In this document: positions 41,086-52,715 of the stretch, one piece after another
Numbering within the stretch: the stretch's first letter is position 1
Layout: the number at the start of each line of letters is the position of its first letter
Assembly: GCF_054482525.1 (NCBI RefSeq)
Contig: NZ_CM137006.1
Strand: one strand, 5' to 3'
Length of the DNA stretch: 64,000 nucleotides
Notes under the pieces: model-generated
What the model saw: the letters and a program-made list of their open reading frames with translations, nothing else
What the model was told of the DNA's origin: nothing
The model's database searches: none
Translations under genes and position numbers: made by a program

Positions 41086-43518
41086 ATGACCACACTGAAA
41101 CTGGACACGCTCAGCGACCGCATTAAAGCGCACAAAAATGCGCTGGTGCATATTGTGAAACCGCCGGTCTGTACCGAGCGCGCGCAGCACTATACCGAGA
41201 TGTATCAACAACATCTCGATAAGCCGATCCCGGTACGTCGCGCGCTGGCACTGGCGCATCACCTGGCGAATCGCACCATCTGGATCAAGCACGATGAGTT
41301 GATCATTGGCAACCAGGCAAGCGAAGTTCGCGCCGCGCCGATCTTCCCGGAATATACCGTCTCCTGGATCGAAAAAGAGATTGATGATCTGGCAGACCGT
41401 CCCGGTGCTGGCTTTGCGGTGAGCGAAGAGAACAAACGCGTTCTGCATGAAGTGTGCCCGTGGTGGCGCGGTCAGACCGTACAGGATCGCTGCTACGGCA
41501 TGTTTACCGATGAGCAAAAAGGTCTGCTGGCGACCGGCATCATTAAAGCGGAAGGCAATATGACCTCCGGCGATGCGCACCTGGCGGTCAATTTCCCGCT
41601 GCTGCTGGAAAAAGGGCTTGATGGTCTGCGCGAGAAAGTAGCGGAACGTCGCTCGCGCATCAACCTGACGGTGCTGGAAGATTTACATGGCGAGCAATTC
41701 CTGAAAGCGATTGATATCGTGCTGGTAGCGGTCAGTGAACACATTGAACGTTTCGCTGCCCTGGCGCGTGAAATGGCCGCGACCGAAACTCGCGAAAGCC
41801 GTCGCGATGAGCTGCTGGCGATAGCAGAAAACTGCGATCTTATCGCCCACCAACCGCCGCAGACTTTCTGGCAGGCGCTGCAACTGTGTTACTTCATCCA
41901 GTTGATTTTGCAGATCGAATCTAACGGTCACTCCGTATCTTTTGGTCGTATGGACCAGTATCTGTACCCGTATTATCGTCGCGACGTTGAACTCAACCAG
42001 ACGCTGGATCGCGAACACGCCATCGAGATGCTGCATAGCTGCTGGCTGAAACTGCTGGAAGTGAACAAGATCCGCTCCGGCTCACACTCAAAAGCCTCTG
42101 CGGGAAGTCCGCTGTATCAGAACGTCACTATTGGCGGGCAAAATCTGGTTGATGGTCAACCAATGGACGCGGTGAATCCACTCTCTTACGCGATCCTCGA
42201 ATCCTGCGGTCGCCTGCGTTCCACTCAGCCTAACCTCAGCGTGCGTTACCATGCAGGAATGAGCAACGATTTCCTCGACGCCTGCGTACAGGTGATCCGT
42301 TGCGGCTTCGGGATGCCGGCGTTCAACAACGACGAAATCGTGATCCCGGAATTTATTAAACTCGGTATTGAACCGCAGGACGCTTACGACTATGCAGCGA
42401 TTGGTTGTATCGAAACCGCCGTCGGTGGCAAATGGGGCTATCGCTGTACCGGCATGAGCTTTATCAACTTCGCCCGCGTGATGCTGGCGGCGCTGGAAGG
42501 CGGTCGTGATGCCACCAGCGGCAAAGTGTTCCTGCCACAAGAAAAAGCGTTGTCGGCGGGTAACTTCAACAACTTCGATGAAGTAATGGACGCATGGGAT
42601 ACGCAAATCCGTTACTACACGCGTAAATCAATCGAAATCGAATATGTCGTTGACACCATGCTGGAAGAGAACGTGCACGATATTCTCTGCTCGGCGCTGG
42701 TGGATGACTGTATTGAGCGAGCGAAAAGTATCAAGCAAGGCGGCGCGAAATATGACTGGGTTTCTGGCCTGCAGGTTGGCATTGCCAACCTCGGCAACAG
42801 CCTGGCGGCAGTGAAGAAACTGGTGTTTGAACAGGGCGCGATTGGTCAGCAACAGCTGGCTGCCGCACTGGCGGATGACTTCGACGGCCTGACTCACGAG
42901 CAACTGCGTCAGCGGCTGATTAACGGCGCGCCGAAGTACGGCAACGACGATGATACTGTCGATACGCTGCTAGCTCGCGCTTATCAGACCTATATCGACG
43001 AACTGAAACAGTACCATAATCCGCGCTACGGTCGTGGTCCGGTTGGCGGCAACTATTACGCGGGTACGTCATCTATCTCCGCTAACGTACCGTTTGGCGC
43101 GCAGACTATGGCAACGCCGGACGGGCGTAAAGCCCACACCCCGCTGGCAGAAGGCGCAAGCCCGGCCTCCGGTACTGACCATCTTGGCCCTACCGCGGTC
43201 ATTGGCTCGGTGGGTAAACTGCCTACGGCAGCGATTCTCGGCGGCGTGTTGCTCAACCAGAAACTGAATCCGGCAACGCTGGAGAACGAATCTGACAAGC
43301 AGAAGCTGATGATCCTGCTGCGCACCTTCTTCGAGGTGCATAAAGGCTGGCATATTCAGTACAACATCGTTTCCCGCGAGACGCTGCTGGAGGCGAAAAA
43401 ACATCCCGATCAGTATCGCGATCTGGTAGTGCGCGTCGCGGGCTATTCCGCCTTCTTCACCGCGCTCTCTCCAGACGCACAGGACGATATCATCGCCCGT
43501 ACTGAACATATGCTGTAA
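41086..43518 (+). CDS. ybiW: Glycyl-radical enzyme YbiW (PflF; pyruvate formate-lyase-like)
   Basis: 810 aa; C-terminal glycyl-radical motif RVAGYSAFF. Confidence 0.9.
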   Translation: MTTLKLDTLSDRIKAHKNALVHIVKPPVCTERAQHYTEMYQQHLDKPIPVRRALALAHHLANRTIWIKHDELIIGNQASEVRAAPIFPEYTVSWIEKEIDDLADRPGAGFAVSEENKRVLHEVCPWWRGQTVQDRCYGMFTDEQKGLLATGIIKAEGNMTSGDAHLAVNFPLLLEKGLDGLREKVAERRSRINLTVLEDLHGEQFLKAIDIVLVAVSEHIERFAALAREMAATETRESRRDELLAIAENCDLIAHQPPQTFWQALQLCYFIQLILQIESNGHSVSFGRMDQYLYPYYRRDVELNQTLDREHAIEMLHSCWLKLLEVNKIRSGSHSKASAGSPLYQNVTIGGQNLVDGQPMDAVNPLSYAILESCGRLRSTQPNLSVRYHAGMSNDFLDACVQVIRCGFGMPAFNNDEIVIPEFIKLGIEPQDAYDYAAIGCIETAVGGKWGYRCTGMSFINFARVMLAALEGGRDATSGKVFLPQEKALSAGNFNNFDEVMDAWDTQIRYYTRKSIEIEYVVDTMLEENVHDILCSALVDDCIERAKSIKQGGAKYDWVSGLQVGIANLGNSLAAVKKLVFEQGAIGQQQLAAALADDFDGLTHEQLRQRLINGAPKYGNDDDTVDTLLARAYQTYIDELKQYHNPRYGRGPVGGNYYAGTSSISANVPFGAQTMATPDGRKAHTPLAEGASPASGTDHLGPTAVIGSVGKLPTAAILGGVLLNQKLNPATLENESDKQKLMILLRTFFEVHKGWHIQYNIVSRETLLEAKKHPDQYRDLVVRVAGYSAFFTALSPDAQDDIIARTEHML

Positions 43519-43526
43519 TCTCCTCG

Positions 43527-43549
43527 GCCCGGCGGCGTCGTCGCCGGGC
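43527..43549 (+). terminator. Hairpin downstream of ybiW
   Basis: gcccggcggcgtcgtcgccgggc. Confidence 0.5.
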
Positions 43550-43663
43550 TAAATCATTCACATAATCAATTCCATCCTTACTTTCATTCGAAATATAATT
43601 TGTGCTCTGCGTCACATTGTTATTACACTGTTACGGTTTCATTTTCGAGCCAGGAGCACACCT

Positions 43664-44479
43664 ATGAGCGTAAAAGTTATCGTCACAGACATGGACGGTA
43701 CTTTTCTTAACGACGCCAAAACGTACAACCAACCACGTTTTATGGCGCAATATCAGGAACTGAAAAAGCGCGGCATTGAGTTCGTTGTCGCTAGCGGTAA
43801 TCAGTATTACCAGCTTATTTCGTTCTTTCCTGAGCTAAAGGATGAGATCTCTTTTGTCGCGGAAAACGGCGCACTGGTTTACGAACATGGCAAGCAGTTG
43901 TTCCACGGCGAACTGACCCGACATGAATCGCGGATTGTGATTGGCGAGTTGCTAAAAGATAAGCAACTCAATTTTGTCGCCTGCGGTCTGCAAAGTGCAT
44001 ATGTCAGCGAAAACGCCCCCGAAGCATTCGTCGCACTGATGGCAAAACACTACCATCGCCTGAAACCTGTAAAAGATTATCAGGAGATTGACGACGTACT
44101 GTTCAAGTTTTCGCTCAACCTGCCGGATGAACAAATCCCGTTAGTGATCGACAAACTGCACATAGCGCTGGATGGCATTATGAAACCCGTTACCAGTGGT
44201 TTTGGCTTTATCGACCTGATTATTCCCGGTCTACATAAAGCAAACGGTATTTCGCGGTTACTGAAACGCTGGGATCTGTCACCGCAAAATGTGGTAGCGA
44301 TTGGCGACAGCGGTAACGATGCGGAGATGCTGAAAATGGCGCGTTATTCCTTTGCGATGGGCAATGCTGCGGAAAACATTAAACAAATCGCCCGTTACGC
44401 TACCGATGATAATAATCATGAAGGCGCGCTGAATGTGATTCAGGCGGTGCTGGATAACACATCCCCTTTTAACAGCTGA
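43664..44479 (+). CDS. ybiV: HAD-family sugar phosphatase YbiV (SupH)
   Basis: 271 aa; paralog of YbjI in the same window ([14 protein letters not shown]). Confidence 0.9.
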
Positions 44480-44630
44480 CCTCTCTACCGGAGCCATGCG
44501 CTCCGGTTTTCCCTTCTTTTTACATCCTGTACATCACATCAAATCATTAAACTTGCATTAACTTATTTATAACTTATATTGTCACATGCAAATCATTATA
44601 GTTTCGAATGAAAGTTAATGCGAGGTGGTT

Positions 44631-45896
44631 ATGGCTTCTACTTTTACCAGCGACACATTGCCTGCCGATCACAAAGCAGCTATCCGTCAGATGAAGCACG
44701 CGCTGCGGGCACAGCTTGGCGACGTCCAGCAGATCTTTAATCAGCTAAGCGATGACATTGCTACGCGAGTGGCTGAAATCAACGCACTCAAAGCACAGGG
44801 CGATGCCGTCTGGCCGGTGCTGTCTTATGCCGATATCAAAGCAGGTCATGTTACTGCAGAGCAGCGCGAACAGATTAAACGTCGCGGTTGTGCGGTGATA
44901 AAAGGCCATTTCCCCCGCGAACAAGCGCTAGGCTGGGATCAGTCGATGCTGGACTATCTGGACCGCAACCGCTTTGACGAGGTCTACAAAGGCCCCGGCG
45001 ATAATTTCTTCGGGACGCTCAGCGCTTCACGTCCCGAGATTTACCCCATCTACTGGTCGCAGGCGCAAATGCAGGCTCGCCAGAGTGAAGAAATGGCGAA
45101 TGCGCAGTCGTTTCTCAATCGTCTGTGGACATTTGAAAGTGATGGAAAGCAATGGTTTAACCCGGATGTGAGCGTCATCTACCCTGACCGTATCCGCCGC
45201 CGTCCGCCCGGAACGACCTCCAAAGGTCTTGGAGCGCATACCGACTCCGGGGCACTGGAACGCTGGCTGCTTCCAGCGTATCAGCGCGTTTTCGCCAACG
45301 TCTTTAATGGCAATCTGGCGCAATATGATCCCTGGCATGCGGCACATCGTACGGAAGTTGAAGAGTACACGGTGGACAACACCACCAAATGTTCCGTGTT
45401 TCGGACATTCCAGGGCTGGACAGCGCTCTCTGATATGCTGCCTGGTCAGGGGCTGCTGCACGTCGTGCCTATTCCTGAAGCCATGGCGTACGTACTGTTA
45501 CGTCCGCTGCTTGATGATGTGCCGGAGGATGAACTGTGCGGCGTAGCGCCCGGAAGAGTATTGCCGGTATCAGAGCAATGGCATCCACTGTTGATTGAGG
45601 CGTTAACCAGCATTCCAAAACTCGAAGCCGGAGACTCCGTCTGGTGGCACTGCGACGTCATCCATTCCGTTGCCCCCGTTGAAAATCAACAGGGCTGGGG
45701 CAACGTGATGTACATTCCTGCGGCACCGATGTGCGAGAAAAATCTTGCCTACGCGCACAAGGTGAAGGCCGCACTGGAAAAAGGCGCATCGCCGGGCGAC
45801 TTCCCGCGCGAGGACTATGAAACAAACTGGGAAGGACGCTTTACGCTTGCCGACCTCAACATTCACGGTAAGCGAGCGTTGGGAATCGACAGCTGA
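44631..45896 (+). CDS. ybiU: DUF1479-family protein YbiU
   Basis: 421 aa from MASTFTSD; synteny. Confidence 0.85.
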   Translation: MASTFTSDTLPADHKAAIRQMKHALRAQLGDVQQIFNQLSDDIATRVAEINALKAQGDAVWPVLSYADIKAGHVTAEQREQIKRRGCAVIKGHFPREQALGWDQSMLDYLDRNRFDEVYKGPGDNFFGTLSASRPEIYPIYWSQAQMQARQSEEMANAQSFLNRLWTFESDGKQWFNPDVSVIYPDRIRRRPPGTTSKGLGAHTDSGALERWLLPAYQRVFANVFNGNLAQYDPWHAAHRTEVEEYTVDNTTKCSVFRTFQGWTALSDMLPGQGLLHVVPIPEAMAYVLLRPLLDDVPEDELCGVAPGRVLPVSEQWHPLLIEALTSIPKLEAGDSVWWHCDVIHSVAPVENQQGWGNVMYIPAAPMCEKNLAYAHKVKAALEKGASPGDFPREDYETNWEGRFTLADLNIHGKRALGIDS

Positions 45897-46966
45897 GTGT
45901 CGTACAGCCCTTCCCGTTCCACGGCGGTGTTCCCTTTTCCTGGGCGAACCCGCCGCACTGACTCCCGCACCGCCAATCGTCCGTGCAGCAGCAGCGAGCC
46001 CACCGGAGCATCCGGGCGAATCAGCCGCTGTTGCAACATTTGCACCGCTTCATTGCCTAGCTCATCGCGTGGCACATGCACAGCCGTCAGGGGAACATCC
46101 TCGATTGCCGCAAGGTTAAAGCCGTCGATACTCATCACCGAGACATCCTGTGGTACGCGCAGACCACGACGATGTAGCGCATTTACCGTTCCCGCCGCCA
46201 TAAAATCCCCGCCGACCAGAAACGCCGTCGGCAACGTCTTGCCATTGGCGGCATCCAGCCACGCTCCGACCTTTTCTTCCGCTTCTTTAGCGCTAAAACT
46301 GCTGATATTCAGCAAATGACGGTCATGGTGAAAGGCCAGATTATGCTGACGCCATGATTCTTTAATCCCTGCAAACCGCTGCTCCATAGTGTAGCGGCGC
46401 AGGCACATCACATTCATCACCTCCCGGTGACCCATTTCAAACAGATAGCGGGCGGCGAACGCGCCAATTAACCGATGGTCCGGCGCAATCGCCGGGAGGC
46501 GCATTCGTTCATCACGGCAGTTGATCAGCACACAAGGCTTAGCGAGATCGGCGGCCAGATCATGGATGTGCGGATCGTCAATCCCCAGCAGGATCGCCGC
46601 CTGCGTATCTGCTTCATTCATCCGCGAGAGAAATAGCGCGGGATCGCTGTCAAACTCCTCCAGCGCGCAGTAACGCAGCCGCACTTCATGCGGCGATAAC
46701 GCTTTGCTGATGCTCTGGATCACACGGTAATAAAAGATATCAGATCGTTGGTCAAAAGCGCGTTGCGGCGCGAAAATAATCAGGTTGTTCAGCAACATAC
46801 GACCTGCTGCCATGCCATCCATCACGCCCAACTCACGCGCGCAGGCCAGCACCTGTTCGCGAGCGCGTGCACTGGTATTCGCTTTGCCAGCCAGCACCCG
46901 CGAAACCGTACTCGGCGATAGCCCGGTACGTGCGGCGATATCGGCGATTTTCAACTTCTTGTCCAT
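45863..46966 (-). CDS. LacI-family transcriptional regulator (accessory; absent from K-12 at this position)
   Basis: N-terminal helix-turn-helix MDKKLKIADIAARTGLSPSTVSRVLAG and periplasmic-binding-protein-like sugar-binding core; 367 aa from ATG 46966; 3' end overlaps the ybiU 3' end by 34 bp. Confidence 0.85.
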   Translation of the reverse strand: MDKKLKIADIAARTGLSPSTVSRVLAGKANTSARAREQVLACARELGVMDGMAAGRMLLNNLIIFAPQRAFDQRSDIFYYRVIQSISKALSPHEVRLRYCALEEFDSDPALFLSRMNEADTQAAILLGIDDPHIHDLAADLAKPCVLINCRDERMRLPAIAPDHRLIGAFAARYLFEMGHREVMNVMCLRRYTMEQRFAGIKESWRQHNLAFHHDRHLLNISSFSAKEAEEKVGAWLDAANGKTLPTAFLVGGDFMAAGTVNALHRRGLRVPQDVSVMSIDGFNLAAIEDVPLTAVHVPRDELGNEAVQMLQQRLIRPDAPVGSLLLHGRLAVRESVRRVRPGKGNTAVEREGLYDTQLSIPNARLP

Positions 46967-47260
46967 TTTGTGATCTGCCTCTAATTCGGAAATGACAGAA
47001 TTTTCATGAGCAAAAAAGCCCATTCTGTCTGGCATTAAATCCATTTCAGTAATGTATATCAGTCACTCATGGAAAAACGTGCACAAAACCCGCTTTCTTT
47101 CGCTTTTAGGGTCTCTTACTGTGAATTGGTAGAACAACTTCCATACAAAAATAATGGAAAAACGAACAATAAAGACTTTATTTATCAAAAAGTTAAAAGT
47201 GGTGTGACAACTCCATTCTGACGTTGCCGCACAAACCCTATACCATTCTGTGGAGTGCAT

Positions 47261-48562
47261 ATGAGTCAGGGTATCAATAACGATATGACTGCCAGTAAAC
47301 CGCGCCATATCGTCAAAAATCTGCGTTGGTGGATACTGGTCCTTTTTTTGCTCGGTGTTACTGTCAACTACATCACGCGTAACTCGCTGGGTATTCTCGC
47401 CCCCGAACTGAAAAGCAGCCTGGGGATTACCACCGAACAATATTCCTGGATTGTAGGTGCTTTCCAGCTCGCCTATACCCTATTCCAACCGTTGTGTGGA
47501 TGGCTGATTGACGTCATTGGCCTCAAACTGGGCTTTATGATCTGCGCGGGACTGTGGGCGCTGGCCTGTCTGATGCATGCGGGGGCGGGAAACTGGGTAC
47601 ATCTGGCGCTGTTGCGCTTCTTTATGGGCGGTGCGGAAGCCGCGGCAACCCCAGCAAACGCCAAAACCATCGGTGAATGGTTTCCAAAATCAGAACGCCC
47701 GATCGCCGCAGGCTGGGCAGGCGTCGGTTTTTCCATCGGTGCCATGCTGGCCCCACCGATTATCTATTTTGCCCACGCTTCATTCGGCTGGCAGGGTGCA
47801 TTTATGTTCACTGGCATCCTGGCGATGCTGTGGGTGGTGCTGTGGTGGGCGTTCTATCACAACCCGGATAAGCATCCTAACCTCAGCAAAGCCGAACTGG
47901 ACTTTATCCGCCAGGATAACGAAGCGCCCCCTGTCAAGTTACCCTTTCTGACCGCACTGAAAACCGTAGGCAAAAATAAACGCTTTTACGGTATCGCTAT
48001 CCCGGCCTTTATGGCAGAACCGGCGTGGGCGGTGATGAGTTTCTGGGTTCCGCTATACCTGTCCAAAACCTATGGCATGGACCTGAAGCAGATCGCATTA
48101 TTCGCCTGGTTGCCGTTCCTCGCCGCTGATCTTGGCAGTATTGCCAGCGGCTATCTGACCAAACTTTACACCCGCCTGTTTGGGCTGAGTCGTGTGAACT
48201 CCGTTGTCGCATCATCGGTCAGTGGCGCATTCCTGATGGTTTCGCTGGCGGTGATGGCCTTTACCAATAACCCGTATATCGCCATCGTCCTTATTTCCAT
48301 CGGCGGCTTCGGTCACCAGATCATCTCCTGCATGCTGAGCGCACTGGTGGTGGAATCCTTCGACAAAGGTCAGATGGCCACTGTTAACGGCATGCGCGGT
48401 TCTGCCGCGTGGATCGCAAGTTTCCTGTTCTCCCTGATTATCGGGGTTACCGCTGACAAAATCGGCTTTACCCCCCTGTTTATCGCCATGGGCTTCTTTG
48501 ACCTGATTGGTGCTTTCTTCCTGGTCACCTTTATTGCTGAACGTCGCGCAAAACGCGCCTGA
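47261..48562 (+). CDS. MFS transporter of the anion:cation symporter family, ExuT-like (accessory)
   Basis: About 40% identity by eye to E. coli ExuT across the N-terminal half (LAPELKSSLGITTEQYSWIVGAFQLAYTLFQP...); 12-TM MFS; start ATG 47261 or GTG 47255. Confidence 0.85.
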   Translation: MSQGINNDMTASKPRHIVKNLRWWILVLFLLGVTVNYITRNSLGILAPELKSSLGITTEQYSWIVGAFQLAYTLFQPLCGWLIDVIGLKLGFMICAGLWALACLMHAGAGNWVHLALLRFFMGGAEAAATPANAKTIGEWFPKSERPIAAGWAGVGFSIGAMLAPPIIYFAHASFGWQGAFMFTGILAMLWVVLWWAFYHNPDKHPNLSKAELDFIRQDNEAPPVKLPFLTALKTVGKNKRFYGIAIPAFMAEPAWAVMSFWVPLYLSKTYGMDLKQIALFAWLPFLAADLGSIASGYLTKLYTRLFGLSRVNSVVASSVSGAFLMVSLAVMAFTNNPYIAIVLISIGGFGHQIISCMLSALVVESFDKGQMATVNGMRGSAAWIASFLFSLIIGVTADKIGFTPLFIAMGFFDLIGAFFLVTFIAERRAKRA

Positions 48563-48576
48563 GAGTGGATGTAAAC

Positions 48577-50940
48577 ATGAAAACGCTGAAAAACTGGACC
48601 CTGCACAAACAGTCTGCCCACCACGTTGAACTGCTGGTCGATGGCCAGCATATCCTGTGCCTGTACGTGCTGGAAGAAAATCTGTTCCGCGTGCTGTTAA
48701 AACGCAAAGGCGAGCTGGCGCTGGATCGCACCTGGAGCATTGCTCCGGCGCAGGATGTGCCATGGGAAGGGCGCAGCCGCGAAGATCTCAGCGGCTTTAG
48801 CCTGCCCGCGTGGACATTGATCCAGCACGACGACACCGTGGTTATCGCCACCGAGTCACTGCGTGCCACCGTTCACCAGCCGCTGTGGCTGGAGTGGCAC
48901 TATCGTAACAACGAAGGCGAATGGCTGCCGTTGGTGAATGACCGCCCGACCAGCGCTTATCTGCTGAATGCCCACGGCGACGGCGTGGCGCACTATCAGA
49001 GCCGTCGTAAAGATGAACGCTTTTATGGCCTCGGAGATAAAGCCGGCGACCTGCAACGCAACGGTAAACGTTACGAGATGCGTAACCTCGACGCGATGGG
49101 CTACAACGCCGTTAGTACTGACCCGTTGTACAAACACATTCCATTCACCATCACCCGCCGCGATGACATTAGCTTCGGCCTGTTTTATGACAACCTCAGC
49201 AGCTGCTGGCTGGATCTGGGCAACGAGATCGACAACTACCACACCGCCTATCGCCGCTGGCAGGCGGAAGCGGGTGATATCGACTACTACCTGTTTACCG
49301 GCGAACGCGTACTTGATATCACCAAAGCCTTCGTACGCCTGACCGGAAAAACCCTGTTCGGACCGAAATGGAGCCTGGGCTACAGCGGTTCAACTATGCA
49401 CTACACCGATGCGCCGGACGCACAAAATCAGTTGATGAACTTTATCCGCCTGTGTGAAGAACATGCGATTCCCTGCGATTCGTTCCAGCTCTCTTCCGGT
49501 TATACCTCAATTAACGGCAAGCGCTATGTGTTCAACTGGAATTACGACAAAGTGCCGCAGCCGAAAGTGATGAGCCAGGCATTTCACAATGCTGGTTTGC
49601 ACCTGGCCGCCAATATCAAGCCGTGCCTGTTGCAGGATCACCCACGCTATAACGAAGTGGCAGAAAGAGGACTGTTCATCCGTGATTCAGAAACAGATGA
49701 ACCAGAACGTTCCAGCTTCTGGGATGACGAAGGTTCTAACCTCGACTTTACTAATCCGCAGACCATACAGTGGTGGCAGGAAGGCGTGACCACACAGCTT
49801 CTGGAGATGGGTATCGACTCCACCTGGAACGACAACAACGAATTCGAAGTGTGGGACGGTGAAGCACGCTGTCACGGCTTTGGTCAGACGATCGCGATCA
49901 AACATATTCGCCCGGTGATGCCACTGCTGATGATGCGAGCCTCGATGGAAGCCCAGCAACGTTTCGCTCCGGAAAAACGTCCGTACTTGATCTCCCGCTC
50001 CGGCTGCGCGGGAATGCAGCGCTATGTGCAGACCTGGAGCGGCGATAACCGCACTAGCTGGGACACTCTGCGCTACAACACCCGCATGGGTCTGGGGATG
50101 AGCCTCTCCGGGCTGTATAACCTCGGTCACGACGTCGGCGGTTTCTCCGGTGATAAGCCGGACCCGGAACTGTTTGTACGCTGGGTACAAAACGGCGTGA
50201 TGCATCCGCGCTTTACGATTCACTCATGGAACGATGACCATACCGTAAACGAACCGTGGATGTATCCGGGTGTCACTCCGGCGATCCGCAGCGCTATTGA
50301 GTTGCGCTATCGCCTGCTGCCCTACTTTTATACCCTGATGTGGCAGGCATACGCCGATGATGAACCAATGCTACGTCCGACTTTCCTTGACCACGAGCAC
50401 GACGTTCAGACTTTTGAAGAGTGTGATGACTTCCTGCTTGGTCGCGATATTTTGGTTGCCAGCGTCGTAGAGCAAGGCGAGCGCCAGCGCCGTGTATGGC
50501 TGCCAGATAACGAAACTGGCTGGTACGATTTCTACAACGGCGAATGGTTCAGTGGCGGTCAGTGGATCACCCTCGACGCACCGCTGGAGAAACTGCCGCT
50601 GATGGTGCGTGCCGGGGCTGGTCTACCGCTCAGCAAACGCATCACCTATGTGAGCGCAGAACAAGACGATACCCGCGAACTGAAACTGTTCCCGCTGAAA
50701 GGTGTGGGCACAACGTCCGGCCTGCTGTTTGAAGACGATGGCGAAAGCTGGGGCTACCAAACTGGTAATGCGCTTTGGGTGGAATGGGAAATGGTTTGCG
50801 ATGGGGCGACCATCAACCTGAAAGTCAACGCGCGCGGGGATTATCGTCCTGCATGGAGTGCACTGAAAGTGTCATTACCAGTGGAAGAAAAACGCACGCT
50901 GCTGGTCAATGGTGTTGAAGGGAGTGAATGGATGCGTTAA
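48577..50940 (+). CDS. Glycoside hydrolase family 31 alpha-glycosidase (accessory), specificity unknown
   Basis: GH31 motifs: nucleophile region STWNDNNEFE, acid/base region QTWSGDNRTSW and GHDVGGF; 787 aa from ATG 48577; 14 nt after the transporter stop (operon). Confidence 0.85.
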   Translation: MKTLKNWTLHKQSAHHVELLVDGQHILCLYVLEENLFRVLLKRKGELALDRTWSIAPAQDVPWEGRSREDLSGFSLPAWTLIQHDDTVVIATESLRATVHQPLWLEWHYRNNEGEWLPLVNDRPTSAYLLNAHGDGVAHYQSRRKDERFYGLGDKAGDLQRNGKRYEMRNLDAMGYNAVSTDPLYKHIPFTITRRDDISFGLFYDNLSSCWLDLGNEIDNYHTAYRRWQAEAGDIDYYLFTGERVLDITKAFVRLTGKTLFGPKWSLGYSGSTMHYTDAPDAQNQLMNFIRLCEEHAIPCDSFQLSSGYTSINGKRYVFNWNYDKVPQPKVMSQAFHNAGLHLAANIKPCLLQDHPRYNEVAERGLFIRDSETDEPERSSFWDDEGSNLDFTNPQTIQWWQEGVTTQLLEMGIDSTWNDNNEFEVWDGEARCHGFGQTIAIKHIRPVMPLLMMRASMEAQQRFAPEKRPYLISRSGCAGMQRYVQTWSGDNRTSWDTLRYNTRMGLGMSLSGLYNLGHDVGGFSGDKPDPELFVRWVQNGVMHPRFTIHSWNDDHTVNEPWMYPGVTPAIRSAIELRYRLLPYFYTLMWQAYADDEPMLRPTFLDHEHDVQTFEECDDFLLGRDILVASVVEQGERQRRVWLPDNETGWYDFYNGEWFSGGQWITLDAPLEKLPLMVRAGAGLPLSKRITYVSAEQDDTRELKLFPLKGVGTTSGLLFEDDGESWGYQTGNALWVEWEMVCDGATINLKVNARGDYRPAWSALKVSLPVEEKRTLLVNGVEGSEWMR

Positions 50941-51119
50941 ATCATTACCGGGGCCGGGAGGCGACTGCGCCTTACCCGGTCAAGCCATCGAATCCTTTAC
51001 CTCAGTATTTCACGCTGCAGGAAGGCAGCAAACCTGTAAACCCCGGGAGCTTAAATAAGTAAGTGACCGGGGTGAACAGGTGAAGCCAATGCATCTGCCG
51101 CATGAAAGACGGCGGGAAA

Positions 51120-52715
51120 TTAACCGTCGATCCCTTTACTACGCAGGTAATCTTCGTAATTACCGCTAAAGTCGATCACGCGTTCCGGGGTGATTTCCAG
51201 AATGCGGGTCGCCAGGGAGCTTACAAACTCACGGTCGTGAGAAACAAAGATCAGCGTGCCCTGATACAGTTCCAGTGCCATGTTCAGCGACTCAATGGAT
51301 TCCATATCCAGGTGGTTGGTCGGTTCGTCCATGATCAGAATGTTCGGCTTCTGCATCATTAACTTACCAAACAGCATCCGCCCTTTTTCTCCACCGGAAA
51401 GCACTTTCGCTGGCTTTTTGATGTCGTCCTGGCTGAACAGCAAACGACCGAGAATGCTGCGTACCGCCTGCTCGTCATCGCCTTCCTGCTTCCACTGACT
51501 CATCCATTCGAACACGGTCAGATCATTTTCGAACTCATATTCGTGGTCCTGGGCGTAGTAACCAATGCGCGCGTTTTCAGACCATTTTACGGTGCCGCTG
51601 TCCGGTTGCAGATCGCCCACCAGCGTTTTCAGCAGCGTTGATTTACCGACGCCGTTGGTACCCAGTACCGCCAGTTTTTCACCGACTTCCAGCAGCAGGT
51701 TGAGATTTTTAAACAGTGGACCGTTATCAAACCCTTTGGTCAGACCTTCCACTTCCAGCGCGTTACGGAACAGTTTCTTATCCTGTTCAAAACGGATGAA
51801 CGGATTCTGACGGCTGGAGGCTTTCACCTCTTCCAGTTTGATTTTATCAATCTGGCGCGCGCGCGAAGTTGCCTGGCGAGATTTCGAGGCGTTGGCGCTA
51901 AAGCGGCTAACGAAAGATTGCAGCTCAGCAATCTGCGCTTTCTTCTTGGCGTTATCGGCCAGCAGACGTTCACGCGCCTGGGTCGCCGCCGTCATGTACT
52001 CATCGTAGTTACCCGGATAAACGCGCAGCTCGCCGTAATCCAGATCCGCCATGTGGGTACAAACCATGTTAAGGAAGTGACGGTCGTGCGAGATGATGAT
52101 CATGGTGCTGTCACGCTCGTTCAGCACCTGTTCCAGCCAACGAATGGTGTCGATGTCGAGGTTGTTGGTCGGTTCGTCGAGCAGGAGAATGTCCGGATCA
52201 GCAAACAGCGCCTGCGCCAGCAGCACACGCAGCTTCCAGCCAGGAGCAACTTCACTCATCGGGCCGTAGTGCTGTTCCACTGGAATTCCCACGCCAAGCA
52301 ACAGTTCACCGGCGCGAGCTTCCGCAGAGTAACCGTCCATTTCGCCGTATTTCACTTCCAGATCGGCCACTTTATAGCCGTCTTCTTCACTCATTTCCGG
52401 CAAAGCATAGATGCGGTCACGCTCCTGCTTCACTTCCCACAACTCTTTATGCCCCATGATCACCGTATCCAGCACAGTGAACTCTTCAAAGGCAAACTGA
52501 TCCTGACGCAGCTTACCAATGCGCTCGTTGGGATCGAGGGAAACGTTACCCAACGTCGGCTCTAAGTCGCCGCCGAGGATCTTCATAAAGGTGGATTTAC
52601 CACTACCGTTCGCGCCAATCAGGCCGTAACGGTTGCCGCCGCCGAATTTGACGGAAATGTTTTCAAACAACGGCTTACTGCCGAACTGCATGGTGACGTT
52701 ACTGGAAACTAACAC
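51120..52715 (-). CDS. ybiT: ABC-F family ATPase YbiT
   Basis: About 530 aa; two ABC cassettes ([18 protein letters not shown]) and no membrane domain. Confidence 0.9.

What the first reader, a model, noticed from the sequence alone, without database searches (positions are those of the whole stretch)
47255..50940. GH31 hydrolase paired with an anion:cation-symporter transporter suggests an acidic alpha-glycoside substrate
Characterised E. coli GH31 enzymes are each paired with GPH-family transporters (YicI with YicJ; YihQ with YihO/YihP). Here the GH31 gene is co-transcribed with an ExuT-like transporter, a family that carries anionic sugars (hexuronates, aldonates, aldarates). The glycosidase keeps the catalytic Asp in WNDNNE and the WSGDN region, so it is probably active. 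The substrate may be an alpha-linked glycoside bearing a carboxylate or other anionic group, not obviously matching a known E. coli pathway.
Basis: inference. Interest (0 to 1): 0.7.

Follow-up and report, generated by a model that had tools for sequence, protein, structure and literature searches.

The report
Glucuronate-linked GH31 glycosidase with uronate-type transporter
A three-gene accessory islet in about one in ten E. coli genomes encodes a regulator, a hexuronate-type transporter and a cytoplasmic GH31 enzyme that most likely import an alpha-linked glucuronic-acid glycoside and split it to feed the glucuronate pathway, an activity no GH31 enzyme has been shown to have.

Summary
Window 47261-48562 encodes an MFS transporter 43% identical to K-12 ExuT. 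Fourteen bases downstream, 48577-50940 encodes a 787-aa GH31 protein with intact WNDNNE (Asp419) and WSGDN (Asp490) motifs. A divergent LacI-family regulator sits at 45863-47044. Together they form a 5.2-kb islet between ybiU and ybiT, absent from K-12 and present in 577 of 5426 complete E. coli genomes.

In 77 of 80 orthologous loci the gene directly upstream of the GH31 is an anion transporter: this MFS in 57 and a TRAP permease in 20. In 28 of the 30 loci that lack the LacI gene, uxaC, uxuA or uxuB lie within 10 kb.

The enzyme has no signal peptide. It belongs to a large GH31 clade at most 26% identical to any solved structure, and conserved sugar-binding residues are replaced. I think an alpha-glucuronidase is most likely. 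An alpha-glycosidase that removes a neutral sugar from glucuronate is not excluded.

Earlier comparative genomics named such a GH31 "LfaA" and speculated that it hydrolyses glucuronides. I found no biochemical characterisation.

The parts
45890..51126 (.). 5.2-kb accessory islet between ybiU and ybiT
   Evidence: blastn against K-12: homology stops at 45889 and resumes at 51127, and the islet replaces 251 bp of the K-12 ybiT-ybiU spacer. The finding's 3.7-kb segment is present in 577 of 5426 complete E. coli genomes, always on the chromosome. GC content is 54.3%, against 51.1% for the whole window.
45863..47044 (-). LacI-family transcriptional regulator, the presumed repressor of the pair. The ORF is 393 aa; RefSeq annotates 45863-47023, 386 aa.
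   Evidence: LacI-family matches (RbsR, CytR, PurR), all below the equivalog cut-offs. It is divergent from the MFS gene and conserved next to MFS-GH31 in 48 of 80 loci. Its 3' end overlaps the 3' end of ybiU by 34 bases.
47045..47260 (.). Divergent control region with a conserved operator-like motif (47069-47088, ATGGAAAAACGTGCACAAAA), a second copy (47154-47169, ATGGAAAAACGAACAA) and one sigma-70-like site (47126-47155)
   Evidence: The alignment of 21 orthologous intergenic regions keeps ATGrrAA-n4-TGCAmAAA. Several loci have a perfect TGAAAA-nn-TTTTCA palindrome near the regulator's start. No binding was tested, and the repeat finder reported no inverted repeat in the E. coli copy.
47261..48562 (+). 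ExuT-like MFS transporter of the anion:cation symporter type (433 aa), the presumed importer of the glycoside
   Evidence: 43% identical to K-12 ExuT. TIGR00893 scores 266 bits, below its 395 cut-off. The DgoT structure 6e9n matches at E = 8e-39, and the Arg (DgoT R47 = R40 here) and Glu (E133 = E126) are kept. Pfam assigns MFS_1. It lies directly upstream of the GH31 in 57 loci. dN/dS is 0.06-0.08.
48563..48576 (+). 14-base spacer with a GAGTGGA ribosome-binding-like sequence
   Evidence: No terminator-like site lies between the genes.
48577..50940 (+). Cytoplasmic GH31 glycosidase (787 aa) with nucleophile Asp419 and acid/base Asp490; a member of an uncharacterised GH31 clade
   Evidence: There is no signal peptide. 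The AlphaFold model has pLDDT 93 and TM 0.87 to FjDex31A at 26% identity.

Best explanation
The islet is a self-contained uptake-and-cleavage module for a small alpha-linked glycoside that contains D-glucuronic acid. The LacI-type repressor probably keeps the divergent promoter closed until the glycoside or a derivative appears. The ExuT-like proton symporter probably recognises the uronate carboxylate and imports the intact glycoside. The cytoplasmic GH31 then hydrolyses the alpha-glycosidic bond by the family's retaining double-displacement mechanism, with Asp419 as nucleophile and Asp490 as acid/base. The released D-glucuronate enters the core UxaC, UxuB, UxuA, KdgK, Eda pathway. My preferred specific reading is that glucuronate occupies the -1 subsite, making the enzyme an alpha-D-glucuronidase. 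Candidate substrates are xylan-derived aldobiouronic acid, GlcA-alpha-1,2-inositol from plant and fungal sphingolipids, and GlcA-alpha-glycerol from glucuronosyl diacylglycerol. What is shown: the gene content, the conservation and the genomic linkage. What is inferred: the substrate, the direction of transport, the regulation, and which side of the bond carries the acid. I put the general claim (a glucuronate-containing alpha-glycoside) at about 0.8 and the specific alpha-glucuronidase claim at about 0.45-0.5.
For: (1) Linkage. Among 80 orthologous loci (58-90% identity; Enterobacterales, Pseudomonas, Aeromonas, Vibrio, Marinomonas, Pasteurellaceae, alpha-proteobacteria), the gene directly upstream on the same strand is this MFS in 57 and the TRAP large permease DctM in 20. 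(2) In 28 of the 30 loci without the LacI gene, uxaC, uxuA or uxuB lie within 10 kb. NCBIfam on the Vibrio barjaei locus gave scores above the cut-offs for mannonate dehydratase, fructuronate reductase, glucuronate isomerase and KDPG aldolase, together with TRAP DctP and DctM subunits. KDG kinase (373 bits against a 400 cut-off) and a UxuR/ExuR-like regulator scored below theirs. The genes found are the glucuronate branch (uxuA, uxuB); no cluster annotated here was the galacturonate branch (uxaA, uxaB). (3) More distant relatives repeat the pattern. In P0126 (47% identity) the GH31 sits between dctM and dctP inside a uxuB-uxaC-manD-kdgK-eda cluster. P0128 and P0134 (45-46%) lie near UxaC. (4) Neither the GH31 orthologues nor the neighbouring GH2 has a signal peptide, so the substrate must be imported. 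(5) Both transporter types are paralogues of hexuronate carriers. The MFS is 43% identical to ExuT. The TRAP binding protein's nearest PDB entries are 4n8y, 4n91, 4ovr, 4n15, 4mhf and 4mij, which I recall as glucuronate- or galacturonate-bound proteins. (6) Evidence for the glycone reading. Residues that line the C4-C6 side of the -1 sugar in canonical GH31 enzymes are replaced, and the replacements are invariant in 77 orthologues: the beta3 Asp (YicI D306, YihQ Q288) is Ser306; the beta4 Ile-x-Asp is Asn346-x-Lys348; the Met after the nucleophile is Asn420; the Trp/Tyr after beta1 is Met274. The profile alignment places invariant Arg316 opposite YihQ Arg301, the residue that binds the sulfonate of sulfoquinovose (the role of R301 is from memory of Speciale et al. 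2016). (7) A GH2 beta-glucuronidase-like gene sits in 11 of the TRAP-type loci, which fits a cluster that handles glucuronides of both anomers. (8) Leyn et al. 2017 independently placed a cytoplasmic GH31, 'LfaA', in a KdgK-UxaC-UxuB-LfaA-UxuA cluster and speculated that it hydrolyses imported glucuronides.
Against: No enzyme assay, transport assay or growth phenotype exists. The E. coli-type islet (48 loci) carries no uxu or uxa genes itself, so for E. coli the link is by orthology only. Asn346, Lys348, Arg316 and Asn420 are also kept in a sister subclade (P0124, P0127, P0133). That subclade sits beside MalK-type ABC sugar transporters or in a short contig with unrelated genes, with no uronate genes in the short contigs recovered. 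These residues therefore mark the wider clade and are not proof of carboxylate binding. Gene context fits equally well with glucuronate as the leaving group. The transporters could in principle carry free glucuronate as well as, or instead of, the glycoside.
Confidence: 0.5

Rival explanations
1. Glucuronate is the leaving group. The GH31 is an alpha-glucosidase, alpha-xylosidase or alpha-hexosaminidase that removes a neutral or amino sugar from the non-reducing end of an X-alpha-(1->n)-GlcA disaccharide. The transporter recognises the reducing-end uronate. Possible substrates are fragments of heparosan-like, matriglycan-like or capsular polysaccharides, or oxidised maltooligosaccharides.
For: The same gene context explains it equally well, because glucuronate is released either way. 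A GH2 beta-glucuronidase-like gene in 11 loci would suit sequential exo-degradation of an alternating alpha-X/beta-GlcA chain. Gram-positive relatives add a PIG-L deacetylase and a second glycosidase (GDE_C-like in the P0128 locus; no Pfam hit on record for the 648-aa protein in the P0134 locus), which hints at an N-acetylhexosamine in the substrate. The closest solved relatives are alpha-glucosidases. The clade-wide residue changes also occur in relatives with no uronate genes in the short contigs recovered.
Against: The beta3 Asp that binds O4 in YicI is kept in the canonical GH31 relatives aligned here (P0247-P0268) and in YicI, but is Ser here. The only aligned enzyme that lacks it, YihQ, has an anionic glycone (the role of D306 is from memory of Lovering et al. 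2005). Scores against the alpha-glucosidase and alpha-xylosidase equivalog models are far below their cut-offs. No xylose or amino-sugar catabolic genes recur in the loci.
Confidence: 0.3
2. It is an ordinary neutral alpha-glucoside or alpha-xyloside utilisation pair, and the transporter's family resemblance and the neighbouring uronate genes are incidental.
For: RefSeq and other sources call it alpha-glucosidase, alpha-xylosidase or simply a GH31 protein. The catalytic machinery is standard GH31. The E. coli islet itself has no uronate genes.
Against: Anion-type transporters lie directly upstream in 77 of 80 loci, and glucuronate-pathway genes are present in 28 of the 30 loci without LacI, across several orders of bacteria. 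That is too consistent to be incidental. Key -1 subsite residues are replaced. Scores are sub-threshold against every characterised equivalog.
Confidence: 0.07
3. It is an alpha-galacturonidase for saturated oligogalacturonides, or a sulfoquinovosidase-like enzyme for another anionic 6-substituted sugar.
For: ExuT carries both hexuronates, and uxaC serves both branches. Arg316 aligns with the sulfonate-binding Arg301 of YihQ, and the beta3 Asp is lost as it is in YihQ.
Against: The linked genes are uxuA and uxuB (glucuronate branch); uxaA and uxaB were not seen in the clusters annotated. The YihQ residues Trp304 and Tyr508 are Phe319 and Phe523 here. No sulfoglycolysis genes are nearby. The YihQ-type model PRK10426 scores 138 bits against a 553 cut-off.
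Confidence: 0.05

Closest known systems
E. coli YihQ sulfoquinovosidase with YihO/YihP (GH31 acting on an anionic 6-substituted glucoside)
   Same: Both are cytoplasmic GH31 retaining alpha-glycosidases encoded next to the importer of an anionic glycoside. Both have lost the canonical beta3 Asp. Both have an extended loop after beta3 carrying an Arg (Arg316 aligned to YihQ Arg301).
   Different: The hhalign profile alignment shows only about 23% identical columns. YihQ Trp304 and Tyr508 are Phe here. The transporter is of the ACS/ExuT type, not GPH. The linked pathway is glucuronate catabolism, not sulfoglycolysis.
ER glucosidase II alpha subunit and Flavobacterium johnsoniae dextranase FjDex31A (closest solved GH31 structures)
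   Same: The overall four-domain fold is shared (TM 0.84-0.87). The WNDxNE and WxGDN catalytic motifs and the Arg474, Trp487, Asp519, Phe523 and His549 equivalents are conserved.
   Different: Identity is only 26%. Changes include GYHQSR[W/Y] to GYSGSTM, LDI[D/E][Y/H] to LSSGY, IDP to IKP, and the Met after the nucleophile to Asn. This protein is cytoplasmic and bacterial, and it is linked to uronate genes.
ExuT (hexuronate:H+ symporter) and the UxaC/UxuB/UxuA Ashwell pathway of E. coli
   Same: The transporter is a 43%-identical paralogue that keeps the TRN motif in TM1 and the Glu in TM4. The predicted product, D-glucuronate, would enter this pathway.
   Different: It is a distinct orthologous group that travels with the GH31 gene rather than with uxaCA. 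It is regulated by a LacI-type protein, not the GntR-type ExuR. It is presumed to carry a glycoside rather than the free acid.
UidA/UidB/UidC beta-glucuronide system of E. coli, and the GH67, GH115 and GH4 alpha-glucuronidases
   Same: The logic is the same: import a glucuronide, split it in the cytoplasm and burn the glucuronate. This comparison rests on established knowledge.
   Different: The anomer, the enzyme family (GH31, not GH2/67/115/4) and the transporter family differ. To my knowledge, and in the literature I could search, no GH31 has been shown to be an alpha-glucuronidase.
'LfaA' GH31 of comparative-genomics reconstructions (Leyn et al. 2017, PMC5507952; the name is, from memory, from Suvorova et al. 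2011, J Bacteriol)
   Same: It is a cytoplasmic GH31 inside a KdgK-UxaC-UxuB-LfaA-UxuA cluster, speculated to hydrolyse imported glucuronides. This is the same context as the TRAP-type and MFS-type loci found here.
   Different: It is a prediction only, annotated there as 'alpha-glucosidase, EC 3.2.1.20'. I could not retrieve its sequence to confirm that it is an orthologue of the E. coli protein.

Membership tests
Glycoside hydrolase family 31 (CAZy GH31) | GH31 catalytic (beta/alpha)8 domain with flanking beta-sandwich domains | tested here: met
   Precomputed Pfam hits PF13802, PF01055, PF21365 and PF17137. AlphaFold model with pLDDT 93 and Foldseek TM 0.87 to 6jr6 and 0.84 to glucosidase II.
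Glycoside hydrolase family 31 (CAZy GH31) | Catalytic nucleophile Asp in WxDxxE and acid/base Asp in WxGD | tested here: met
   Asp419 in WNDNNE and Asp490 in WSGDN align with YicI D416/D482 and YihQ D405/D472. Both are invariant in 77 orthologues.
Canonical GH31 alpha-glucosidases (MalA, GAA, MGAM, glucosidase II type) | Conserved -1 subsite: beta3 Asp (GAA D404), GYHQxR[W/Y], I-x-D-P on beta4, Met after the nucleophile | tested here: not met
   These positions are Ser306, GYSGSTM274, N346-I-K348-P and Asn420. The NCBIfam MalA equivalog scores 305 bits against an 800 cut-off.
GH31 alpha-xylosidase (YicI type) | Equivalog-level similarity, plus Lys two residues before the nucleophile and residues that block C6 (F277, C307, W345) | tested here: not met
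   PRK10658 scores 229.5 bits against a 606 cut-off. YicI K414 aligns with Trp417, W345 with Asn346 and D306 with Ser306.
GH31 sulfoquinovosidase (YihQ type) | Sulfonate-binding Arg-Trp-Tyr triad (R301, W304, Y508) | tested here: not met
   The Arg is kept (Arg316), but W304 corresponds to Phe319 and Y508 to Phe523. PRK10426 scores 138 bits against a 553 cut-off. No sulfoglycolysis genes are nearby.
Alpha-glucuronidase (functional class; known in GH67, GH115, GH4) | Hydrolysis of an alpha-D-glucuronosyl bond with release of D-glucuronate | not testable with these tools
   Only indirect evidence is available: linkage to uxaC/uxuA/uxuB and uronate-type transporters and charge-altering changes in the -1 subsite.
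MFS anion:cation symporter family (TC 2.A.1.14), ExuT subgroup | MFS fold with sequence similarity to ExuT and DgoT and the conserved TM1 Arg and TM4 Glu | tested here: met
   Pfam MFS_1 at E = 9e-59. 43% identity to ExuT. Aligned with DgoT 6e9n, R47 corresponds to R40 and E133 to E126.
ExuT orthologue (free hexuronate transporter) | Orthology to E. coli ExuT: high identity and the uxaCA-exuT-exuR context | tested here: not met
   Identity is only 43%. TIGR00893 scores 266 bits, below its 395 cut-off. The gene travels with the GH31 in 57-58 loci instead. K-12 has its own exuT elsewhere.
LacI/GalR family repressor | N-terminal helix-turn-helix plus periplasmic-binding-protein-like effector domain | tested here: met
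   Full-length matches to the RbsR, CytR and PurR models, all below the equivalog cut-offs. RefSeq annotates it as a LacI-family regulator. The effector and operator were not tested.
Predicted 'Lfa' glucuronide-utilisation genes of comparative-genomics reconstructions | Cytoplasmic GH31 embedded in or co-regulated with glucuronate catabolic genes | tested here: inconclusive
   The context matches, but the published LfaA sequence could not be compared and the original 2011 paper could not be read.

The most novel reading that the evidence does not exclude
This is the first GH31 alpha-D-glucuronidase. With its dedicated ExuT-like or TRAP importer it defines a widespread route in Proteobacteria, and possibly beyond, for using small alpha-glucuronides. 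Such compounds include xylan-derived aldobiouronic acid, GlcA-inositol from plant and fungal GIPC sphingolipids, and GlcA-glycerol from glucuronosyl diacylglycerol. The route would give islet-carrying E. coli, Klebsiella and Enterobacter a nutrient niche that K-12-type strains lack. It might also explain the orphan methylglucuronoxylose phenotype of Enterobacter asburiae JDR-1.
Probability: 0.45. Interest if true: 0.65.

Novelty: new variant of a known kind. Interest (0 to 1): 0.55.

Why it matters
If the enzyme is an alpha-glucuronidase, it adds a new specificity to GH31, a heavily studied family. It would also give a second case, after sulfoquinovosidase, of GH31 adapting its C6 pocket to an anionic group. 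It would identify the importer and the first catabolic step for alpha-glucuronides in enteric, plant-associated and marine bacteria. Glucuronate is already known to matter for gut colonisation by enteric pathogens (PMC10990124, listed). The islet is strain-variable in E. coli (about 11% of complete genomes) but appears widespread in Klebsiella and Enterobacter, whose 90%-identity clusters hold 6706 and 8119 member sequences. It could therefore underlie differences in niche use. The prediction can be tested directly with commercial substrates.

Tried and rejected
(1) Sulfoquinovosidase: rejected because two of the three triad residues are missing and no pathway genes are nearby.

(2) Plain alpha-glucosidase or alpha-xylosidase: rejected as the main reading on equivalog scores, subsite residues and gene context.

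(3) A periplasmic enzyme that frees glucuronate for uptake: rejected because no orthologue has a signal peptide.

(4) Galacturonide substrate: disfavoured because the linked genes are uxuA and uxuB.

(5) Mobile-element origin of the islet: I did not look for mobile-element genes or flanking repeats. The islet is always chromosomal, and its GC content is only slightly above the window mean.

(6) Literature: searches for a characterised GH31 alpha-glucuronidase, for GH31 with 'glucuronosyl', and for aldobiouronate or GIPC catabolism found nothing direct. My search for LfaA/LfaT/LfaR returned only unrelated acronyms and used the last allowed search. The GH31 subfamily paper (JBC 2023), Bi et al. 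2009 and Suvorova et al. 2011 are not held.

(7) The structure model's coordinates are not exposed to scripts, so I could not measure active-site distances.

(8) The repeat finder found no inverted repeat in the E. coli control region. The operator-like motif came only from the cross-species alignment.

(9) Source names for distant clade members, including a liverwort, a chytrid and a yeast, are all generic.

Full report
**What is there.** The stated coordinates hold two same-strand ORFs. RefSeq annotates them in identical E. coli genomes as an MFS transporter (window 47261-48562, 433 aa) and a GH31 protein (48577-50940, 787 aa). A LacI-family regulator is encoded divergently at 45863-47044. 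Comparison with K-12 shows that window 45890-51126 is a 5.2-kb insertion replacing 251 bp of the ybiT-ybiU spacer. The finding's 3.7-kb segment occurs in 577 of 5426 complete E. coli genomes, always on the chromosome and mostly at 99% identity or more. The MFS stop and the GH31 start are 14 bases apart, with a GAGTGGA ribosome-binding-like sequence and no terminator-like site between them. dN/dS against Enterobacter, Pseudocitrobacter and Serratia orthologues is 0.06-0.10.

**The transporter.** It is 43% identical to K-12 ExuT over 414 residues. Its best NCBIfam model is TIGR00893 (TC 2.A.1.14), although below the cut-off. Its best PDB relative is the D-galactonate:H+ symporter DgoT. The TM1 Arg (DgoT R47) and the TM4 Glu (E133) are kept, and the TM1 motif TRN is shared with ExuT. 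It is an ExuT paralogue, not ExuT itself.

**The enzyme.** Asp419 (WNDNNE) and Asp490 (WSGDN) align with the nucleophile and acid/base of glucosidase II, YicI and YihQ. The AlphaFold model is confident (pLDDT 93) and superposes on FjDex31A and glucosidase II with TM 0.84-0.87, but at only 26% identity. Scores against the NCBIfam equivalogs for alpha-glucosidase MalA (305 against 800), alpha-xylosidase (229 against 606) and the YihQ-type model PRK10426 (138 against 553) are far below the cut-offs. A search of 1.8 billion representative proteins, followed by an alignment of the best hits, shows that the protein belongs to a large, distinct clade. That clade includes a few eukaryotes. In this clade the canonical motifs are replaced:
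- GYHQSR[W/Y] becomes GY[S/L][G/A]S[T/S]M.
- LDIDY becomes LSSGY.
- IDP becomes IKP.
- WNDMNE becomes WNDNNE.

Ser306 therefore sits where YicI has Asp306 and YihQ has Gln288. Asn346-x-Lys348 replaces Ile-x-Asp, Asn420 replaces Met, and Met274 replaces Trp/Tyr. All of these are invariant in 77 orthologues. A profile alignment puts invariant Arg316 opposite YihQ Arg301, while YihQ Trp304 and Tyr508 correspond to Phe residues. No source gives any clade member a specific name.

**Gene neighbourhoods.** A scan of one genome per species returned 80 orthologous loci at 58-90% identity.
- The LacI/MFS/GH31 trio recurs in 48 loci, from Enterobacterales and Pseudomonas.
- The MFS-GH31 pair recurs in 57-58 loci.
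- In 20 loci, from Vibrio, Marinomonas, Pasteurellaceae and alpha-proteobacteria, the MFS is replaced by TRAP transporter genes ending directly upstream of the GH31.
- In 28 of the 30 loci without the LacI gene, uxaC, uxuA or uxuB lie within 10 kb.

NCBIfam on the Vibrio barjaei locus identified the following genes around the GH31: mannonate dehydratase, a UxuR/ExuR-like regulator (below its cut-off), a GH2 beta-glucuronidase-like protein, the TRAP DctP and DctM subunits flanking a short ORF in the DctQ position that had no NCBIfam match, fructuronate reductase, glucuronate isomerase, KDG kinase (just below its cut-off) and KDPG aldolase. More distant relatives repeat the link. In P0126 (47% identity) the GH31 lies between dctM and dctP inside a uxuB-uxaC-manD-kdgK-eda cluster. 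P0128 and P0134 lie near UxaC, together with a PIG-L deacetylase and a second glycosidase. Neither the GH31 orthologues nor the GH2 has a signal peptide. The TRAP binding protein's nearest solved relatives are, from my memory of Vetting et al. 2015, proteins crystallised with glucuronate or galacturonate.

**Interpretation.** A cytoplasmic alpha-glycosidase is nearly always encoded directly after a carboxylate-type importer, and it is repeatedly embedded in the glucuronate branch of the hexuronate pathway. It most likely acts on an imported alpha-linked glycoside that yields D-glucuronate. I put this general claim at about 0.8. Context cannot say whether glucuronate is the glycone (an alpha-glucuronidase) or the leaving group. 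I favour the glycone, at about 0.45-0.5, for three reasons. Residues on the C4-C6 side of the -1 subsite have changed with a net gain of positive charge. The O4-binding Asp kept by the aligned canonical relatives and by YicI is lost, as it is in sulfoquinovosidase. A GH2 beta-glucuronidase-like neighbour suggests parallel enzymes for the two anomers.

The counter-evidence is real. A sister subclade keeps Asn346, Lys348, Arg316 and Asn420. Two of its three sampled members lie beside MalK-type ABC sugar transporter genes and the third lies in a short contig with unrelated genes, with no uronate genes in the short contigs recovered. I also could not measure distances in the model. Candidate substrates come from general knowledge, not from tests here:
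- Aldobiouronic acid from glucuronoxylan. Enterobacter asburiae JDR-1 is reported to import and cleave methylglucuronoxylose; the reference is seen, the paper is not readable, and an E. asburiae genome carries the islet as L007.
- GlcA-alpha-1,2-inositol from GIPC sphingolipids.
- GlcA-alpha-glycerol from glucuronosyl diacylglycerol.

**Regulation.** The divergent intergenic region carries a motif conserved across genera, ATGrrAA-n4-TGCAmAAA, at 47069-47088, with a second copy at 47154-47169. In several species a perfect TGAAAA-nn-TTTTCA palindrome lies by the regulator's start. This is a plausible LacI-type operator, but it is untested.

**Prior knowledge.** I found no paper that characterises a GH31 alpha-glucuronidase. 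Leyn et al. 2017 (PMC5507952) list a cytoplasmic GH31 named LfaA within KdgK-UxaC-UxuB-LfaA-UxuA, and they speculate that it hydrolyses imported glucuronides. A 2025 paper on Gilliamella notes a GH31 next to hexuronate genes. The genomic association is therefore not new; the enzymology is open.

**Verdict.** The system is an ordinary catabolic module in its architecture, but it probably carries a GH31 specificity that has not been described: a new variant of a known kind. Interest is moderate, at 0.55.

Noticed in passing
window 45863-45896: The 3' end of the LacI-family gene (minus strand) overlaps the 3' end of ybiU (plus strand) by 34 bases. The islet junction with K-12-homologous DNA lies at 45889/45890, inside this overlap.
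   Followed up: partly
window 47069-47088 and 47154-47169; loci L006-L074 intergenic regions: An operator-like motif, ATGrrAA-n4-TGCAmAAA, is conserved across genera. E. coli has a second copy. Several species have a perfect TGAAAA-nn-TTTTCA palindrome at the regulator's start.
   Followed up: partly
L059:4951-6750 and ten other TRAP-type loci (cluster c17): A cytoplasmic GH2 protein of about 600 aa resembles beta-glucuronidase (227 bits against a 544 cut-off). It accompanies the GH31 in Vibrio barjaei and in alpha-proteobacterial glucuronate clusters, which suggests either handling of both anomers or sequential degradation of a mixed-linkage oligosaccharide.
   Followed up: partly
L089/L090 (P0128) and L093 (P0134): Relatives at 45-46% identity, from metagenome contigs of unidentified organisms, sit with a PIG-L-family deacetylase, a second glycosidase (GDE_C-like in L089/L090; no Pfam hit on record for the 648-aa protein in L093), a sugar transporter and UxaC. 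This hints at a GlcNAc- and GlcA-containing substrate, such as the GIPC head group GlcNAc-alpha-1,4-GlcA-alpha-1,2-inositol.
   Followed up: no
P0124, P0127, P0133 (L003, L096): A sister subclade has HxGSGY and MNS in place of LSSGY and IHS. P0127 and P0133 lie beside MalK-type ABC sugar transporter genes, and P0124 lies beside AP_endonuc_2 and DUF993 genes. No uronate genes appear in these short contigs, and the substrate is unknown.
   Followed up: partly
P0167, P0174, P0294: The clade has eukaryotic members: the liverwort Riccia sorocarpa, a chytrid (Nowakowskiella) and the yeast Blastobotrys adeninivorans. All carry only generic names.
   Followed up: no
L088 (Paraburkholderia, P0123): At 48% identity, the MFS-GH31 pair is followed directly by a porin gene (Porin_4). 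This suggests a dedicated outer-membrane entry route for the same substrate.
   Followed up: no
window 41086-45896: Upstream of the islet lie the core K-12 genes ybiW (a glycyl radical enzyme, whose activase ybiY precedes it in the matching RefSeq record), ybiV (a sugar phosphatase) and ybiU (DUF1479). They are annotated as in K-12 and I did not examine them further.
   Followed up: no
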